Below, piece by piece: positions 34,481 through 39,404 of a DNA stretch of 42,323 nt. The DNA lies in the NCBI RefSeq assembly GCF_003334385.1, contig NZ_QOWN01000038.1; one strand, written 5' to 3'. The notes under the pieces were generated by a model. That model did not search any database. It worked only from the letters and a program-made list of their open reading frames with translations, and had not been told where the DNA came from. Made by a program: the position numbers and the translations under genes. How positions within the stretch are numbered: the stretch's first letter is position 1; every line of letters begins with the position of its first letter. Source of the DNA: Escherichia coli (GTDB lineage Bacteria > Pseudomonadota > Gammaproteobacteria > Enterobacterales > Enterobacteriaceae).

Positions 34481-35548
34481 ATGGATAAGAGTAAGCGCCA
34501 TCTGGCGTGGTGGGTTGTCGGGTTACTGGCGGTGGCGGCTATCGTGGCGTGGTGGCTGTTGCGCCCGGCAGGTGTGCCGGAAGGCTTTGCTGTCAGTAAT
34601 GGGCGCATTGAAGCGACGGAAGTGGATATTGCCAGCAAAATTGCCGGGCGTATCGACACCATTCTGGTGAAAGAAGGCCAGTTTGTTCGCGAAGGTGAAG
34701 TGCTGGCGAAGATGGATACTCGCGTGTTGCAGGAACAGCGACTGGAAGCCATCGCGCAAATCAAAGAGGCACAAAGCGCCGTTGCTGCCGCGCAGGCTTT
34801 GCTGGAGCAACGACAAAGCGAAACTCGTGCCGCACAGTCGCTGGTTAATCAACGCCAGGCAGAACTGGACTCCGTAGCAAAACGTCATACGCGTTCCCGT
34901 TCACTGGCCCAACGAGGGGCTATTTCTGCGCAACAGCTGGATGACGATCGCGCCGCCGCTGAGAGCGCCCGAGCTGCGCTGGAATCGGCGAAAGCTCAGG
35001 TATCGGCTTCTAAAGCGGCTATAGAAGCGGCACGCACCAATATCATTCAGGCGCAAACCCGCGTCGAAGCGGCACAAGCCACTGAACGGCGCATTGCCGC
35101 AGATATCGATGACAGCGAACTGAAAGCCCCGCGTGACGGACGCGTGCAGTATCGGGTTGCCGAGCCAGGCGAAGTGCTGGCGGCAGGCGGTCGGGTGCTG
35201 AATATGGTCGATCTCAGCGACGTCTATATGACTTTCTTCCTGCCAACCGAACAGGCGGGCACGCTGAAACTGGGCGGTGAAGCCCGGCTGATCCTCGATG
35301 CCGCGCCAGATCTGCGTATTCCTGCAACCATCAGTTTTGTCGCCAGTGTCGCCCAGTTCACGCCAAAAACCGTCGAAACCAGCGATGAACGGCTGAAACT
35401 GATGTTCCGCGTCAAAGCGCGTATCCCACCGGAATTACTCCAGCAGCATCTGGAATATGTCAAAACCGGTTTGCCGGGCGTAGCGTGGGTGCGGGTGAAT
35501 GAAGAACTTCCGTGGCCTGACGACCTCGTGGTGAGGTTGCCGCAATGA
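34481..35548 (+). CDS. yhiI: HlyD-family membrane fusion protein YhiI
   Basis: 355-aa ORF with N-terminal TM anchor ([18 protein letters not shown]) and long A/Q-rich coiled-coil region; its stop overlaps the rbbA start (ATGA at 35545-35548). Confidence 0.93.
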
Positions 35549-38280
35549 CGCATCTGGAACTGGTTCCCGTCCCGCCTGTCGCGCAACTGGCGGGCGTGAG
35601 CCAGCATTATGGAAAAACCGTTGCGCTGAACAATATCACTCTCGATATTCCGGCCCGCTGTATGGTCGGGCTGATTGGCCCGGACGGCGTCGGGAAGTCG
35701 AGCTTGTTGTCGTTGATTTCCGGTGCCCGCGTCATTGAACAGGGCAATGTGATGGTGCTGGGCGGCGATATGCGCGACCCGAAGCATCGCCGCGACGTCT
35801 GCCCGCGCATCGCCTGGATGCCGCAGGGGCTGGGCAAAAACCTCTACCACACCTTGTCGGTGTATGAAAACGTCGATTTTTTCGCTCGCCTGTTCGGTCA
35901 CGACAAAGCGGAGCGGGAAGTGCGAATCAATGAGCTGCTGACCAGCACCGGGTTAGCACCGTTTCGCGATCGTCCGGCAGGGAAACTCTCCGGCGGGATG
36001 AAGCAAAAACTTGGGCTGTGCTGCGCGTTAATCCACGACCCGGAACTGTTGATCCTTGATGAGCCAACAACGGGGGTTGACCCGCTCTCCCGCTCCCAGT
36101 TCTGGGATCTGATCGACAGTATTCGCCAGCGGCAGAGCAATATGAGCGTGCTGGTCGCCACCGCCTATATGGAAGAGGCCGAACGCTTCGACTGGCTGGT
36201 AGCGATGAATGCCGGAGAAGTGTTGGCAACTGGCAGCGCCGAAGAGCTACGGCAGCAAACGCAAAGCGCTACGCTGGAAGAAGCATTTATAAATCTGTTA
36301 CCGCAAGCGCAACGCCAGGCGCATCAGGCGGTAGTGATCCCACCGTATCAACCTGAAAACGCAGAGATTGCCATCGAAGCGCGCGATCTGACCATGCGTT
36401 TTGGTTCCTTCGTTGCCGTTGATCACGTTAATTTCCGCATTCCACGCGGGGAGATTTTTGGTTTTCTTGGTTCGAACGGCTGCGGTAAATCCACCACCAT
36501 GAAAATGCTCACCGGACTGCTGCCCGCCAGCGAAGGTGAGGCGTGGCTGTTCGGGCAACCGGTTGATCCAAAAGATATCGATACCCGCCGTCGGGTGGGC
36601 TATATGTCGCAGGCGTTTTCGCTCTATAACGAACTCACCGTGCGGCAAAACCTTGAGTTACATGCCCGTTTGTTTCACATCCCGGAAGCGGAAATTCCCG
36701 CAAGAGTGGCTGAAATGAGCGAGCGTTTTAAGCTCAACGACGTTGAAGATATTCTGCCGGAGTCATTGCCGCTCGGCATTCGCCAGCGGCTTTCGCTGGC
36801 GGTGGCGGTGATTCATCGCCCGGAGATGTTAATCCTCGATGAGCCTACTTCTGGTGTCGATCCGGTGGCGAGGGATATGTTCTGGCAGTTGATGGTCGAT
36901 CTCTCGCGCCAGGACAAAGTGACTATCTTCATCTCCACCCACTTTATGAACGAAGCGGAACGTTGCGACCGCATCTCACTGATGCACGCCGGAAAAGTGC
37001 TTGCCAGCGGTACACCGCAGGAACTGGTTGAGAAACGCGGAGCCGCCAGTCTGGAAGAGGCATTTATCGCCTATTTGCAGGAAGCGGCAGGGCAGAGCAA
37101 CGAAGCCGAAGCGCCGCCCGTGGTACACGACACCACCCACGCGCCGCGTCAGGGATTTAGCCTGCGCCGTCTGTTTAGCTACAGCCGCCGCGAAGCGCTG
37201 GAACTGCGACGCGATCCAGTACGTTCGACGCTGGCGCTGATGGGAACGGTGATCCTGATGCTGATAATGGGTTACGGCATCAGTATGGATGTGGAAAACC
37301 TGCGCTTTGCGGTGCTCGACCGCGACCAGACCGTCAGTAGCCAGGCGTGGACACTCAACCTCTCCGGTTCCCGTTACTTTATCGAACAGCCGCCGCTCAC
37401 CAGTTATGACGAGCTTGATCGTCGGATGCGTGCGGGCGATATCACGGTGGCGATTGAGATCCCGCCCAATTTCGGGCGCGATATCGCGCGTGGTACGCCT
37501 GTGGAACTCGGCGTCTGGATCGACGGAGCGATGCCGAGCCGTGCTGAAACGGTAAAAGGTTACGTGCAGGCCATGCACCAGAGCTGGTTACAGGATGTGG
37601 CGAGCCGACAATCGACACCCGCCAGCCAAAGCGGGCTGATGAATATTGAGACGCGCTATCGCTATAACCCGGACGTAAAAAGCCTGCCAGCGATTGTTCC
37701 GGCGGTGATCCCGCTTCTGCTGATGATGATCCCGTCAATGCTAAGCGCCCTTAGCGTGGTGCGGGAAAAAGAGCTTGGGTCGATTATCAACCTTTACGTG
37801 ACCCCCACCACGCGTAGTGAATTTTTGCTTGGTAAACAGTTGCCATACATCGCGCTGGGGATGCTGAACTTTTTCCTGCTCTGCGGCCTGTCGGTGTTTG
37901 TGTTTGGCGTACCGCATAAAGGCAGTTTCCTGACGCTCACCCTGGCGGCGCTGCTGTATATCATCATTGCCACCGGAATGGGGCTGCTGATCTCCACCTT
38001 TATGAAAAGCCAGATTGCCGCCATTTTCGGAACGGCGATTATCACGTTGATCCCGGCGACACAGTTTTCCGGGATGATCGATCCGGTAGCTTCGCTGGAA
38101 GGGCCTGGACGTTGGATCGGCGAGGTTTACCCGACCAGTCATTTTCTGACTATCGCCCGCGGGACGTTCTCGAAAGCGCTGGATCTGACTGATTTGTGGC
38201 AACTTTTTATCCCGTTGCTGATAGCCATCCCGCTGGTGATGGGCTTAAGTATCCTGCTGCTGAAAAAACAGGAGGGATGA
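35545..38280 (+). CDS. rbbA: Ribosome-associated ATPase RbbA (tandem ABC ATPase domains fused to an ABC-2 permease domain)
   Basis: 911-aa ORF; two Walker A motifs ([18 protein letters not shown]), two ABC signature motifs ([17 protein letters not shown]) and C-terminal TM segments. Confidence 0.95.
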
Positions 38281-39404
38281 TGCGCCATTTACGCAATATT
38301 TTTAATCTGGGTATCAAAGAGTTGCGCAGTCTGCTCGGTGATAAAGCGATGCTGACGCTGATTGTCTTCTCGTTTACGGTGTCGGTGTATTCGTCAGCGA
38401 CCGTTACGCCAGGATCGTTGAACCTCGCGCCGATCGCCATTGCCGATATGGATCAATCGCAGTTATCGAACCGGATCGTTAACAGCTTCTATCGTCCGTG
38501 GTTTTTGCCACCGGAGATGATCACCGCCGATGAGATGGATGCCGGACTGGACGCCGGACGCTATACCTTCGCGATAAATATTCCGCCTAATTTTCAGCGT
38601 GATGTCCTCGCCGGACGCCAGCCGGATATTCAGGTGAACGTCGATGCCACGCGCATGAGCCAGGCATTTACCGGCAATGGGTATATCCAGAATATTATCA
38701 ACGGTGAAGTGAACAGCTTTGTCGCGCGCTACCGTGATAACAGCGAACCGTTGGTATCGCTGGAAACCCGGATGCGCTTTAACCCGAACCTCGATCCCGC
38801 GTGGTTTGGCGGGGTGATGGCGATCATCAACAACATTACCATGCTGGCGATTGTATTGACCGGATCGGCGCTGATCCGCGAGCGTGAACACGGCACGGTG
38901 GAACACTTACTGGTGATGCCGATAACGCCGTTTGAGATCATGATGGCGAAGATCTGGTCGATGGGGCTGGTGGTGCTGGTGGTATCGGGATTATCGCTGG
39001 TGCTGATGGTGAAAGGTGTACTGGGCGTACCGATTGAAGGCTCGATCCCGCTGTTTATGCTGGGCGTGGCGCTCAGTCTGTTTGCCACCACGTCAATCGG
39101 CATTTTTATGGGGACGATAGCGCGTTCAATGCCGCAACTGGGGCTGCTGGTGATTCTGGTGCTGCTGCCGCTGCAAATGCTTTCCGGTGGTTCCACGCCG
39201 CGCGAAAGTATGCCGCAGATGGTGCAGGACATTATGCTGACCATGCCGACGACACACTTTGTTAGCCTCGCGCAGGCCATCCTCTACCGGGGTGCCGGAT
39301 TCGAAATCGTCTGGCCGCAGTTTCTGACGCTGATGGCAATTGGCGGCGCATTTTTCACCATTGCGCTGCTGCGATTCAGGAAGACGATTGGGACAATGGC
39401 GTAA
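38277..39404 (+). CDS. yhhJ: ABC-2 family permease YhhJ
   Basis: Start [21 protein letters not shown] at ATG 38277, overlapping the rbbA stop (ATGATG); polytopic C-terminal region. The track ORF begins upstream inside rbbA. Confidence 0.9.

What the first reader, a model, noticed from the sequence alone, without database searches (positions are those of the whole stretch)
34481..39404. Translationally coupled yhiI-rbbA-yhhJ module: membrane fusion protein plus fused double-ATPase/permease plus ABC-2 permease
Three ORFs overlap by ATGA (35545-35548) and ATGATG (38277-38282), indicating tight translational coupling. The architecture (HlyD-family periplasmic adaptor, an ABC protein with two nucleotide-binding domains fused to a permease domain, and a separate ABC-2 permease) is that of a tripartite-type exporter. 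Yet RbbA is described in the literature as a ribosome-associated ATPase. The physiological substrate is, as far as I know, unresolved. Its placement between the AT-rich yhiL/yhiJ islet and the Rhs/IS cassette is notable.
Basis: partly seen in the sequence, partly recalled or inferred. Interest (0 to 1): 0.45.

Follow-up and report, generated by a model that had tools for sequence, protein, structure and literature searches.

The report
Known E. coli yhiI-rbbA-yhhJ exporter operon
This is the already annotated E. coli operon yhiI-rbbA-yhhJ, which by every sequence test looks like an ATP-driven pump that expels an unknown compound through the cell envelope, not like a ribosome factor, despite the name RbbA.

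Summary
ORFs 34481-35548, 35545-38280 and 38280(38277)-39404 are E. coli yhiI, rbbA and yhhJ. They are 100% identical to RefSeq genomes and present in 5414 of 5426 complete genomes, and both overlaps are real. YhiI is an inner-membrane-anchored, EmrA-like periplasmic adaptor. RbbA is NBD1-NBD2-TMD, and YhhJ is a second ABC-2 permease.

The operon is colinear with the paralogue ybhG-ybhF-ybhS-ybhR, with the F and S equivalents fused. In 80 orthologous loci from many phyla the three genes keep their order and tight junctions. In 19 of 67 loci an outer-membrane-factor gene sits directly upstream, 9 times with a 4-nt overlap. This supports a tripartite pump, and in E. coli the outer partner is presumably TolC.

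All 81 orthologues share one degenerate and one canonical ATP site. RbbA lacks the ABC-F hallmarks. The ribosome work used TM-truncated protein, and the 2011 RbbA-YhjD interaction paper was retracted in 2025.

Upstream lies a conserved leader with the small ORF yhiY, and Rho-dependent termination has been reported there.

The substrate remains unknown. The module is already known as the 'YHIH' ABC subfamily, so novelty and interest are low.

The parts
34120..34147 (+). Sigma-70 promoter-like site, TAGACA-16-TACTAT with an extended -10 TG
   Evidence: It is the only promoter-like hit in 34000-39800. The same hexamers are listed for yhiI-rbbA-yhhJ in the RpoD genomic SELEX table (PMC3946193).
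34305..34418 (+). yhiY, a 37-codon upstream ORF (MMTTLLPVFTKPSPLALNALRAGRICRFLLIPDGRIR)
   Evidence: RefSeq annotates it as protein YhiY. Its N-terminal MMTTLLP and C-terminal FLLIP(D/E)GxxR-stop are conserved in Escherichia, Citrobacter and Pseudocitrobacter. Adams et al. list it as a candidate regulatory uORF with a 3' end downstream and report Rho-dependent termination before yhiI.
34412..34432 (+). Conserved 9-bp hairpin that spans the yhiY stop codon (TGA 34416-34418)
   Evidence: 96.8% of cells are paired in 7 enterobacterial sequences and 2 pairs change on both sides. Slid controls pair only 22-44% of cells. However, 67 of 500 shuffles do as well, so the covariation support is weak.
34481..35548 (+). 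yhiI, the periplasmic adaptor (membrane fusion protein). It has an N-terminal TM anchor (aa 8-26), a split lipoyl domain, an alpha-hairpin of two helices of about 60 residues (aa 81-144 and 150-210) and a beta-barrel. It has no membrane-proximal domain.
   Evidence: Pfam HlyD families. NCBIfam RND_mfp at 118.5 bits against a cutoff of 94.9. Hydropathy. AF2 model with pLDDT 91. The best fold matches are EmrA in EmrAB-TolC, then MacA. It is 30% identical to YbhG.
35545..38280 (+). rbbA (old name yhiH), a 911-aa NBD1-NBD2-TMD fusion
   Evidence: NCBIfam equivalog NF033858 at 1596.6 bits against a cutoff of 1050. Pfam. AF2 model with pLDDT 85.9 and pTM 0.76.
35578..36309 (+). RbbA NBD1 (aa 12-255). 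It has Walker A GPDGVGKS, the canonical signature LSGGMKQK and Walker B LILDEPT, but its H-loop histidine is replaced by Tyr208.
   Evidence: These motifs are invariant in 81 orthologues. YbhF shows the same Tyr (STSYLDEAE).
36370..37089 (+). RbbA NBD2 (aa 276-515). It has Walker A GSNGCGKS, a degenerate signature LPLGIRQR, Walker B LILDEPTS and the canonical H-loop His466.
   Evidence: All 81 orthologues carry [LMI]PLGxRQR and STHF. YbhF has LPLGFKQR. The Tyr H-loop of NBD1 and this degenerate signature belong to the same composite ATP site.
37090..37152 (+). Flexible tether between NBD2 and the TMD (aa 516-536), which is the fusion joint
   Evidence: Identity to non-enteric orthologues is 15.5% here, against 67-77% in the flanking domains. 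pLDDT is below 50 at residues 517-532.
37153..38277 (+). RbbA ABC-2 permease domain. TM1 is at aa 563-581, the periplasmic domain at about 582-715, and TM2-6 at 721-905.
   Evidence: Hydropathy. ABC2_membrane_3 at E 2e-39. It is closest to YbhS (169 bits, 32%), with YbhR weaker at 119 bits. The best PDB fold hit is the ABCH-9C lipid exporter.
38280..39404 (+). yhhJ, the second ABC-2 permease (374 aa; an alternative ATG lies at 38277). It has the same 1+5 TM plan, with a periplasmic domain at about aa 43-180.
   Evidence: Pfam. Hydropathy. It matches YbhR full-length (115 bits) better than YbhS (84 bits). It is 28% identical to the RbbA TMD. Its only PDB sequence relatives are the ABCH-9C TMD and a transport permease protein of entry 8tsh.
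39404..39458 (+). Inverted repeat followed by a T-rich stretch directly after the yhhJ stop. It is a likely terminator or REP-like element that ends the operon.
   Evidence: 21-nt arms that are 76% complementary. Sequence read. The next gene (ISEc1 transposase yhhI) is on the opposite strand.

Best explanation
The locus is the E. coli operon (yhiY)-yhiI-rbbA-yhhJ. It encodes an adaptor-dependent ABC exporter of the ABC-2 (type V) fold.

Shown by sequence and comparison:
- One RbbA chain supplies both nucleotide-binding domains and one permease domain.
- YhhJ supplies the second, homologous permease domain.
- YhiI is an inner-membrane-anchored periplasmic adaptor with a long alpha-hairpin.
- The three genes are a conserved, tightly joined unit.
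- In more than a quarter of orthologous loci the unit also carries an outer-membrane-factor gene.

Inferred:
- RbbA and YhhJ form a 1:1 pseudo-heterodimer.
- ATP is hydrolysed at the canonical site (Walker A/B and His of NBD2 plus the LSGGM signature of NBD1).
- The degenerate site (Walker A/B and Tyr208 of NBD1 plus the LPLGI signature of NBD2) mainly binds ATP.
- The two periplasmic domains of about 135 aa carry a YhiI oligomer whose hairpins dock onto TolC, since E. coli has no channel gene at the locus.
- An unknown substrate, probably amphipathic or lipid-like, or a xenobiotic, is taken from the inner membrane or periplasm and expelled across the outer membrane.

Expression starts at the promoter near 34120-34147 and runs through the conserved yhiY leader. 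Rho-dependent premature termination is reported there, so it is probably a point of regulation.

The ribosome-stimulated ATPase activity reported for TM-truncated RbbA is at most a secondary property.
For: - Domain content comes from Pfam and NCBIfam.
- Both permease units have six TM segments and a large TM1-TM2 loop.
- The AF2 model of RbbA has pLDDT 85.9. Its best PDB match is the type V exporter ABCH-9C, followed by fused double NBDs (OppD/DppD) and ABCA proteins.
- The closest PDB sequence matches to the NBDs are ABCA3, ABCA4 and ABCA1.
- The operon is colinear with ybhG-F-S-R: YhiI matches YbhG, RbbA 1-515 matches YbhF at 40-41% identity, the RbbA TMD is closest to YbhS, and YhhJ matches YbhR best.
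- YbhG is destabilised in a tolC knockout and was co-purified with TolC (PMC6056769).
- The order adaptor-RbbA-permease is kept in all 80 orthologous loci (65-99% identity, many phyla) wherever the flank is sufficient, and in three plasmids.
- An OMF gene sits directly upstream on the same strand in 19 of 67 loci, 9 times with a 4-nt overlap, and once downstream. It is the only widely conserved neighbour.
- The YhiI model has pLDDT 91, with helices 81-144 and 150-210. Its best fold matches are EmrA in EmrAB-TolC (E 1.6e-21) and MacA in MacAB-TolC.
- The asymmetric ATP sites are invariant in 81 orthologues and shared with YbhF.
- RbbA-mCherry is distributed around the membrane (PMC6788730).
- The operon is intact in 5414 of 5426 E. 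coli genomes.
- The leader is supported by the RefSeq yhiY annotation, by the Rho effect and uORF listing, by conservation and by the published promoter.
Against: - The E. coli locus has no OMF gene, and no direct evidence for YhiI-TolC or YhiI-RbbA-YhhJ complexes was found.
- No substrate or clear phenotype is known. Overexpression of yhiHJ had only a small effect on anthocyanin export. Other mentions are correlative.
- In 48 of 67 orthologous loci no OMF gene is adjacent, so an outer-membrane partner is not obligatory in cis.
- In vitro work still reports that truncated RbbA stimulates translation 1.3- to 2.1-fold (PMC12096078).
- The stoichiometry, the NBD-to-TMD docking and the inactivity of the degenerate site all rest on models and family knowledge, not on measurement.
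Confidence: 0.75

Rival explanations
1. The exporter works without an outer-membrane channel. YhiI-RbbA-YhhJ moves a lipid or other envelope component from the inner membrane to the periplasm, or between leaflets. It would then resemble ABCA/ABCH lipid exporters or adaptor-dependent ABC systems that stop at the periplasm, serving envelope homeostasis and not efflux across both membranes.
For: - The best structural and sequence relatives of the NBD2-TMD half are lipid exporters: ABCH-9C with ceramide, and ABCA1, ABCA3, ABCA4 and ABCA7.
- There is no OMF gene in E. coli or in 48 of 67 orthologous loci.
- In 8-9 loci and on a Paracoccus plasmid the neighbours are acyl or hydroxyacyl metabolism genes: PHA-synthase-like, enoyl-CoA hydratase/phosphate acetyltransferase, acetate/propionate kinase and FabG.
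- Identity of 65-70% across phyla is unusually high for a drug pump.
Against: - An OMF gene is fused into the operon in 19 of 67 loci, often with a 4-nt overlap.
- The two ~60-residue helices of the YhiI hairpin are the channel-docking element in its best structural matches, EmrA and MacA.
- The paralogous adaptor YbhG behaves as a TolC partner.
Confidence: 0.15
2. RbbA is primarily a translation elongation factor. It would be a ribosome-bound ATPase that ejects deacyl-tRNA from the E-site, with the membrane domain only tethering it, and yhiI and yhhJ would be functionally unrelated neighbours.
For: - Older biochemical work summarised reports stimulation of poly-Phe synthesis, E-site footprints and hygromycin B sensitivity.
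- Truncated RbbA raised peptide yield 1.3- to 2.1-fold in a reconstituted system in 2025 (PMC12096078).
- The tandem NBDs superficially resemble ABC-F proteins (EttA appears in the fold list at TM 0.21-0.37).
Against: - RbbA is not an ABC-F protein. Similarity to EttA is 25% identity, 93.6 bits, with 20% gaps, against 231+143 bits to YbhF.
- No ABC_tran_Xtn/PtIM linker hit appears even at E<=10.
- The inter-NBD linker is about 20 aa and poorly conserved.
- The protein has a conserved 6-TM permease domain and is membrane-located.
- The gene is joined by overlaps to an adaptor and a permease in 80 loci across phyla, often with an OMF gene.
- All the assays used TM-truncated protein, because the full-length protein is unstable.
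- The 2011 paper with in vivo and interaction data was retracted in 2025.
- That paper's statement that rbbA is in its own operon contradicts the sequence.
- The gene is non-essential.
Confidence: 0.06
3. The operon is a horizontally acquired cassette that is effectively silent in E. coli. It would be kept off by premature Rho termination and by AT-rich, H-NS-bound surroundings, and would have no physiological role under normal conditions.
For: - The operon is 56.6% GC between 36-38% GC flanks, next to IS and Rhs elements.
- Copies occur on plasmids, and orthologues at 65-70% identity are scattered over many phyla.
- Rho-dependent termination is reported in the 5' UTR.
- No phenotype has been reported.
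- The operon is lost without harm in genome-reduced and evolved strains.
Against: - The operon is intact in 5414 of 5426 complete genomes at 95% identity or more.
- All catalytic motifs are preserved.
- A constitutive RpoD promoter is mapped.
- The conserved leader suggests conditional control and not decay.
- RbbA was one of the membrane proteins examined in the inner-membrane proteomics study.
Confidence: 0.04

Closest known systems
YbhGFSR (E. coli cecR-ybhGFSR operon), a putative TolC-dependent ABC-2 efflux system
   Same: It is the paralogue in the same genome with colinear gene order: adaptor, double-NBD ATPase, then two ABC-2 permeases with large periplasmic loops. It shares the same asymmetric ATP sites, with Tyr in the NBD1 H-loop and LPLGx in the NBD2 signature. 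In MAG loci L056 and L069 both systems lie in one array that shares an OMF gene.
   Different: Here the ATPase and the first permease are one polypeptide (RbbA = YbhF + YbhS equivalents). The inter-NBD spacer is about 60 aa shorter than in YbhF. YhiI has an N-terminal TM anchor. E. coli has no adjacent TetR regulator (CecR) and has the yhiY leader instead. YbhGFSR has reported substrates and TolC links, and this system has none.
MacAB-TolC, the ABC-type tripartite efflux pump
   Same: It is an ABC transporter with periplasmic domains, a hexameric adaptor and TolC. MacA is among the best fold matches of YhiI.
   Different: MacB has the FtsX/type VII fold with 4 TM helices and acts as a homodimer with one NBD per chain. 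RbbA and YhhJ have the ABC-2/type V fold with 6 TM helices each and form a heterodimer. MacA has a membrane-proximal domain that the YhiI model lacks.
EmrA, the adaptor of EmrAB-TolC
   Same: It is the best structural match of YhiI (E 1.6e-21, TM 0.53-0.56). Both have an N-terminal TM anchor, a long alpha-hairpin, lipoyl and beta-barrel domains, and no membrane-proximal domain.
   Different: EmrA serves an MFS transporter, not an ABC transporter. Sequence identity is only 17-19%.
Type V eukaryotic ABC exporters: ABCH-9C, ABCA1, ABCA3, ABCA4, ABCA7 and ABCG
   Same: They are the closest solved relatives of the NBDs and of the NBD2-TMD half. They share the NBD-before-TMD order, extracellular domains between TM1 and TM2, and lipid-type substrates.
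   Different: They have no periplasmic adaptor or outer-membrane channel. Identity is only about 22%. The RbbA periplasmic domain is much smaller than the ABCA ectodomains.
ABC-F translation factors: EttA, Uup, YbiT and YheS
   Same: They have two tandem NBDs in one chain. Ribosome-linked ATPase activity is reported for truncated RbbA, and RbbA has been used side by side with ABC-F proteins in vitro.
   Different: RbbA has a permease domain, lacks the PtIM/ABC_tran_Xtn linker, and is far closer to transporter NBDs.
uORF/Rho attenuators such as mdtU-mdtJI, tnaC and speFL
   Same: A short conserved ORF (yhiY) lies directly upstream. An RNA 3' end is mapped less than 200 nt downstream of it, and a yhiI fusion rises more than 2-fold in rho R66S. 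The C-terminal peptide is conserved and a hairpin spans the stop codon.
   Different: No ligand, no stalling and no rut site have been shown for yhiY. In Citrobacter the two conserved ends of the ORF are in different frames.

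Membership tests
RbbA equivalog (NCBIfam NF033858, ribosome-associated ATPase/putative transporter RbbA) | Whole-protein score above the curated cutoff over the full model length | tested here: met
   1596.6 bits against a cutoff of 1050. Residues 12-910 match model positions 1-908 of 909.
ABC-2 / type V ABC exporter | Permease domains belong to the ABC-2 membrane families | tested here: met
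   RbbA 569-903 hits PF12698 (2e-39) and PF01061 (3.6e-17). YhhJ 25-364 hits PF12698 (1.2e-34) and PF01061 (6.1e-26).
ABC-2 / type V ABC exporter | NBD precedes the TMD, with six TM helices per TMD and an extracytoplasmic domain between TM1 and TM2 | tested here: met
   Hydropathy peaks lie at 563-581, 721-739, 769-787, 798-816, 824-842 and 887-905 in RbbA, with the same plan in YhhJ. The AF2 helices agree. The top PDB fold hit is ABCH-9C over about 680 columns.
ABC-2 / type V ABC exporter | ATP-driven export of a defined substrate | not testable with these tools
   No substrate is reported in the papers found.
Tripartite (adaptor + outer-membrane factor) efflux pump | A periplasmic adaptor gene co-transcribed with the transporter | tested here: met
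   yhiI overlaps rbbA by 4 nt. The same junction is found in 63 of 74 orthologous loci. RND_mfp subfamily score is 118.5 against a cutoff of 94.9.
Tripartite (adaptor + outer-membrane factor) efflux pump | The adaptor has an alpha-helical hairpin able to reach and dock an outer-membrane channel | tested here: met
   The AF2 model (pLDDT 91) has helices 81-144 and 150-210. The best matches are EmrA in EmrAB-TolC and MacA in MacAB-TolC. This is a predicted structure, not a solved one.
Tripartite (adaptor + outer-membrane factor) efflux pump | An outer-membrane factor partner | tested here: inconclusive
   An OMF gene is directly upstream on the same strand in 19 of 67 orthologous loci (9 with a 4-nt overlap) and downstream in 1. 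None is present at the E. coli locus. TolC use in E. coli is inferred from the paralogue YbhG and was not tested.
Tripartite (adaptor + outer-membrane factor) efflux pump | Physical assembly of adaptor, transporter and channel | not testable with these tools
   This needs co-purification, crosslinking or cryo-EM.
ABC-F translation factors (EttA type) | Soluble protein without a transmembrane domain | tested here: not met
   RbbA has a conserved 375-aa ABC-2 permease domain and the RbbA fusion is membrane-located.
ABC-F translation factors (EttA type) | An inter-NBD linker of about 80 aa carrying the P-site tRNA interaction motif (Pfam ABC_tran_Xtn) | tested here: not met
   No ABC_tran_Xtn hit appears in the Pfam list even at E<=10. 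The linker is about 20 aa (256-275) and only 40% conserved. The alignment to EttA needs 20% gaps.
ABC-F translation factors (EttA type) | NBDs closer to ABC-F proteins than to transporter NBDs | tested here: not met
   EttA gives 93.6 bits at 25% identity, against 231+143 bits at 40-41% for YbhF. The next NCBIfam families are DrrA, NodI and GldA. The top PDB sequence hits are ABCA proteins.
ABC-F translation factors (EttA type) | Binding to the ribosomal E-site in cells | not testable with these tools
   Only in vitro data with truncated protein exist. The interaction study was retracted.
Asymmetric ABC transporter with one degenerate ATP site | Non-consensus residues cluster in one composite site while the other site stays consensus | tested here: met
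   The NBD1 H-loop is Tyr in 81 of 81 orthologues and the NBD2 signature is [LMI]PLGxRQR in all. The NBD1 signature LSGGMKQK and the NBD2 H-loop His are canonical. YbhF shows the same pattern.
Asymmetric ABC transporter with one degenerate ATP site | The degenerate site binds ATP but hydrolyses it poorly | not testable with these tools
   This needs ATPase assays of E173Q and E433Q mutants. Both Walker B glutamates are retained, so residual activity is possible.
uORF-dependent Rho attenuator (mdtU, tnaC type) | A translated short ORF in the leader with premature Rho-dependent termination downstream | tested here: inconclusive
   The ORF is present and annotated and its ends are conserved. Translation, the 3' end and the Rho effect are taken from the literature. 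Neither ligand sensing nor stalling has been shown.

The most novel reading that the evidence does not exclude
RbbA is truly dual-purpose. In the cell, the cytoplasmic NBD pair of the membrane-embedded exporter engages ribosomes, so that translation and export through YhiI-RbbA-YhhJ are coupled. For example, it might act on ribosomes stalled on the yhiY leader or at the membrane. The in vitro stimulation of translation would then reflect a real regulatory link and not an artefact of a truncated protein. Nothing computed here excludes this reading, but nothing in the sequence calls for it either.
Probability: 0.07. Interest if true: 0.75.

Novelty: already known. Interest (0 to 1): 0.28.

Why it matters
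The operon is one of the few remaining E. coli K-12 transport systems with no substrate. Its central gene carries a product name, 'ribosome-associated ATPase', that rests on in vitro work with truncated protein and on a paper that is now retracted.

The comparative evidence here argues that annotation and experiments should treat it as an envelope-spanning ABC-2 pump related to YbhGFSR:
- A strictly conserved adaptor-RbbA-permease unit.
- An outer-membrane-factor gene fused into the operon in many taxa.
- An EmrA-like adaptor.
- Conserved asymmetric ATP sites.
- No ABC-F features.

The evidence also points to a concrete route to the inducer and substrate, namely the conserved yhiY leader with reported Rho termination. 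None of this is a new kind of system.

Tried and rejected
- An Rfam scan of 33900-39900 at E<=1 found nothing.
- The whole leader (34290-34500) does not fold better than shuffles (z = -1.39). Only the local hairpin at the yhiY stop is conserved, and its covariation is statistically weak.
- The word-indexed protein search returned only near-identical E. coli sequences and gave no diversity. Diversity came from the representative search and the genome scan.
Absence of Salmonella or Klebsiella from the list cannot be read as absence of the operon. Papers name a Salmonella yhiH.
- The generic terminator scan inside the operon found no more sites than in shuffles (8 against 5.9 +/- 2.7), so it gives no support for internal terminators.
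- The 2006 paper on ribosome localisation of RbbA is not held, so the primary ribosome data could be judged only through later summaries.
- I considered Na+ export (NatAB-like, as claimed for YbhFSR) and an importer role. Neither has specific support.
- I considered that neighbouring genes might reveal the substrate. Apart from the OMF gene, only a minority link to acyl/PHA-type metabolism genes was found. It is recorded as a lead, not a conclusion.

Full report
**Observation.** The three ORFs exist exactly as described: 34481-35548 (355 aa), 35545-38280 (911 aa) and a third frame open from 38196 to 39404. ATGA at 35545-35548 and ATGATG at 38277-38282 are in the sequence. The rbbA stop is TGA at 38278-38280. 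RefSeq starts yhhJ at 38280, a 1-nt TGATG overlap giving 374 aa, and the ATG at 38277 would give a 4-nt overlap.

The stretch is 100% identical to E. coli chromosomes, where it is annotated yhiY, yhiI, rbbA and yhhJ. 5414 of 5426 complete genomes hold at least 80% of it at 95% identity or more. The window is therefore E. coli, and the finding is an annotated operon.

**Anatomy.** Pfam gives the following:
- YhiI hits HlyD_3, HlyD_D23 and Biotin_lipoyl_2.
- RbbA has two ABC_tran domains (28-176 and 293-436) and ABC2_membrane_3 at 569-903.
- YhhJ has ABC2_membrane_3 at 25-364.

NCBIfam places RbbA in its equivalog NF033858 at 1596.6 bits against a cutoff of 1050. The next-best NBD families are DrrA, NodI and GldA.

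Hydropathy shows one N-terminal TM segment in YhiI (8-26). RbbA and YhhJ each have a 1+5 TM plan with a hydrophilic loop of about 135-140 aa between TM1 and TM2.

The AF2 model of RbbA, built on 58 sequences, has pLDDT 85.9 and pTM 0.76. It shows two NBDs, a disordered tether at 517-532, an elbow helix, TM helices and a mixed alpha/beta periplasmic domain. Its best PDB match is the type V lipid exporter ABCH-9C over about 680 columns, followed by fused double NBDs (OppD, DppD) and ABCA proteins. By sequence, the nearest solved NBDs are ABCA3, ABCA4 and ABCA1. YhhJ's only solved relatives are the ABCH-9C TMD and a transport permease protein of entry 8tsh. No structure of RbbA or YbhF is in the PDB copy.

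The YhiI model has pLDDT 91. It has a TM helix, a split lipoyl domain, two helices of 64 and 61 residues forming a hairpin, and a beta-barrel, but no membrane-proximal domain. Its best matches are EmrA inside the EmrAB-TolC cryo-EM structures (E 1.6e-21) and then MacA in MacAB-TolC.

**Paralogy.** The operon is colinear with ybhG-ybhF-ybhS-ybhR of the same genome:
- YhiI matches YbhG at 30% identity.
- RbbA 1-515 matches YbhF at 40-41% (231 and 143 bits).
- The RbbA TMD matches YbhS best (169 bits, 32%), with YbhR weaker at 119 bits.
- YhhJ matches YbhR over its full length (115 bits), with YbhS weaker at 84 bits.

RbbA is therefore the fusion of the YbhF and YbhS equivalents. The joint (aa 516-536) is the least conserved part of the protein, at 15.5% identity against 67-77% in the domains, and it is disordered in the model.

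**Comparative genomics.** The best 80 are full-length orthologues at 65-99% identity. They come from Escherichia, Citrobacter, Pseudocitrobacter, Providencia, Pseudomonas, Nitrosomonas, many Rhizobiales, Acetobacteraceae, Desulfobulbales-type MAGs, Geomonas, Verrucomicrobia, Gemmataceae and Nitrospira. Copies also lie on plasmids of Legionella, Paracoccus (with a divergent TetR gene) and Rhizobium.

Wherever the flank allows, the order adaptor-RbbA-permease is kept. The adaptor stop overlaps the RbbA start by 4 nt in 63 of 74 loci. The RbbA stop and the permease start lie within -4 to +3 nt in about 73 of 78 loci. The tight junctions are thus a conserved property and not a chance feature of E. 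coli.

The only widely conserved neighbour is an outer-membrane-factor gene. It sits directly upstream on the same strand in 19 of 67 loci, 9 times with a 4-nt overlap, and once downstream. In two MAG loci a ybhGFSR-like operon, an OMF gene and a yhiI-rbbA-yhhJ-like operon form one array.

E. coli has no OMF gene at the locus, so TolC is the inferred partner. The inference is by analogy with YbhG, which is destabilised in a tolC knockout and was co-purified with TolC (PMC6056769).

**ATP sites.** In all 81 orthologues the H-loop of NBD1 is Tyr (A/STAYM) and the signature of NBD2 is [LMI]PLGxRQR. The signature of NBD1 (LSGGMKQK) and the H-loop of NBD2 (STHF) are canonical. Both Walker A lysines and both Walker B glutamates are kept, and YbhF has the same pattern.

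By the established head-to-tail geometry of ABC dimers, the two deviant elements belong to the same composite site. The transporter therefore has one degenerate and one consensus site, as in many heterodimeric exporters. That the degenerate site is catalytically weak is an inference.

**The ribosome question.** RbbA is not an ABC-F protein. Similarity to EttA is generic (93.6 bits, 25% identity, 20% gaps). No ABC_tran_Xtn linker domain is detected, and the inter-NBD linker is about 20 aa and poorly conserved. RbbA-mCherry is distributed around the membrane (PMC6788730).

The 2025 in vitro study used a form lacking the TM domain, because the full-length protein is unstable, and saw 1.3- to 2.1-fold effects (PMC12096078). 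The 2011 paper that reported ribosome, YhjD and respiratory-chain interactions was retracted in 2025 for image concerns. It also stated that rbbA lies in its own operon, which the overlaps contradict. The primary 2006 localisation paper is not held.

I therefore rate a primary ribosomal role as unlikely (0.06). A moonlighting role is not excluded.

**Regulation.** The only promoter-like site, TAGACA-16-TACTAT at 34120-34147, is the one listed for yhiI-rbbA-yhhJ in the RpoD SELEX catalogue (PMC3946193).

Between it and yhiI lies yhiY (34305-34418). Adams et al. report that a yhiI fusion rises more than 2-fold in rho R66S, and they list yhiY-yhiI among uORFs with a 3' end downstream.

The leader is conserved in Escherichia, Citrobacter and Pseudocitrobacter. 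The conserved parts are the N-terminal MMTTLLP, the C-terminal FLLIP(D/E)GxxR-stop with synonymous third-position changes, a 9-bp hairpin over the stop codon, and the 50 nt before the yhiI start. The hairpin pairs in 96.8% of cells, with two double changes, but 67 of 500 shuffles do as well. A tnaC/mdtU-like attenuator is a reasonable hypothesis and is not shown.

An inverted repeat with a T-rich tail (39404-39458) follows yhhJ.

**Substrate.** None is known. The literature gives only weak or correlative hints:
- A small effect of yhiHJ overexpression on anthocyanin export.
- A biofilm note for yhiI.
- A GWAS SNP in rbbA associated with microcin C resistance.
- Expression correlated with ciprofloxacin heteroresistance in Salmonella.

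In 8-9 of 80 loci and on the Paracoccus plasmid, the module lies beside genes for an enoyl-CoA hydratase/phosphate acetyltransferase, an acetate/propionate kinase, a PHA-synthase-like protein and FabG. Together with the ABCH/ABCA-like fold, this makes a lipid-like or hydroxyacyl substrate worth testing, but it is only a lead.

**Context and novelty.** The operon is 56.6% GC between flanks of 36-38% GC, beside ISEc1 and RhsB. With the plasmid copies and the cross-phylum similarity, this fits ancient horizontal acquisition, yet the operon is now core in E. coli.

The architecture has long been catalogued as ABC class DRI, subfamily YHIH (IM, ABC2 or ABC2-IM, MFP; function unknown), named after this gene's old name (PMC2821768). 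The finding is therefore already known.

What this analysis adds:
- The OMF linkage in orthologous loci.
- The fusion map to YbhF and YbhS.
- The invariant asymmetric ATP sites.
- The EmrA-like adaptor model.
- The explicit failure of the ABC-F membership tests.
- The conserved yhiY leader.

**Verdict.** The best explanation is an adaptor-dependent ABC-2 exporter, probably working with TolC (confidence 0.75). Novelty is 'already known' and interest is 0.28.

Noticed in passing
window 34268-34432: The leader upstream of yhiI is conserved among Escherichia, Citrobacter and Pseudocitrobacter. The conserved parts are the two ends of yhiY (MMTTLLP... and ...FLLIPDGxxR-stop), a hairpin over its stop codon, and an overlapping 22-codon ORF (MSMRVSFTARNADDDNITTRFH, 34268-34336). 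In Citrobacter the two conserved yhiY ends are in different reading frames, so which frame is translated there is unclear.
   Followed up: partly
window 38196-38282; proteins P0001-P0010: A few E. coli assemblies (one contig each) encode 1272-1286-aa RbbA-YhhJ fusion ORFs, caused by frameshifts or a deletion near the rbbA 3' end. The frameshifted ones scramble the last TM helix. They are sequencing errors or sporadic pseudogenes.
   Followed up: partly
L056 453-12935; L069 10-7651; L024 7227-17745: In two MAG contigs a ybhGFSR-like operon, an OMF gene and a yhiI-rbbA-yhhJ-like operon lie head to tail on one strand. In L024 a second adaptor/double-NBD/two-permease set follows yhhJ directly. This suggests tandem duplication and a shared outer-membrane channel.
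   Followed up: no
L023, L039, L043, L049, L073, L077, L078, L081 flanks; L006 12845-16987: Recurrent neighbours of the module in alpha-, beta- and gammaproteobacteria are a bifunctional enoyl-CoA hydratase/phosphate acetyltransferase, an acetate/propionate kinase, a PHA-synthase-like protein and FabG. They lie either downstream on the same strand or upstream and divergent. This is a possible hint to the substrate class.
   Followed up: partly
L005 (Legionella pLELO), L006 (Paracoccus pYEE3), L007 (Rhizobium pRlX1): Complete adaptor-RbbA-permease modules sit on plasmids, one of them conjugative. On pYEE3 the module has a divergent TetR/AcrR gene and nearby transposases. The module is therefore mobile.
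   Followed up: partly
window 39404-39500: An inverted repeat (39404-39424 / 39438-39458) and a second REP-like GCCGGATAAGGCG motif lie between yhhJ and the ISEc1 transposase gene yhhI.
   Followed up: no
window 30588-34115 and 39569-42186: The operon is 56.6% GC (GC3 0.58-0.69). Its flanks are 36-38% GC and hold the YhiJ/YhiL-family genes, the ISEc1 transposase, a HEAT-repeat pseudogene, yhhH and rhsB.
   Followed up: no
literature (PMC12169533, PMC8277102): The 2011 RbbA-YhjD paper was retracted in June 2025, while RefSeq still names the product 'ribosome-associated ATPase'. Separately, a major review discusses YbhFSR under the MacB/FtsX family, although the homologous RbbA and YhhJ permease domains hit only ABC-2 Pfam families.
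   Followed up: partly
L002 3746-5482 (ybhF) against window 35545-37134: YbhF carries about 60 extra residues between its two NBDs compared with RbbA. The alignment blocks are RbbA 35-237 with YbhF 30-226, and RbbA 234-513 with YbhF 286-570. The nature of this insert was not examined.
   Followed up: no
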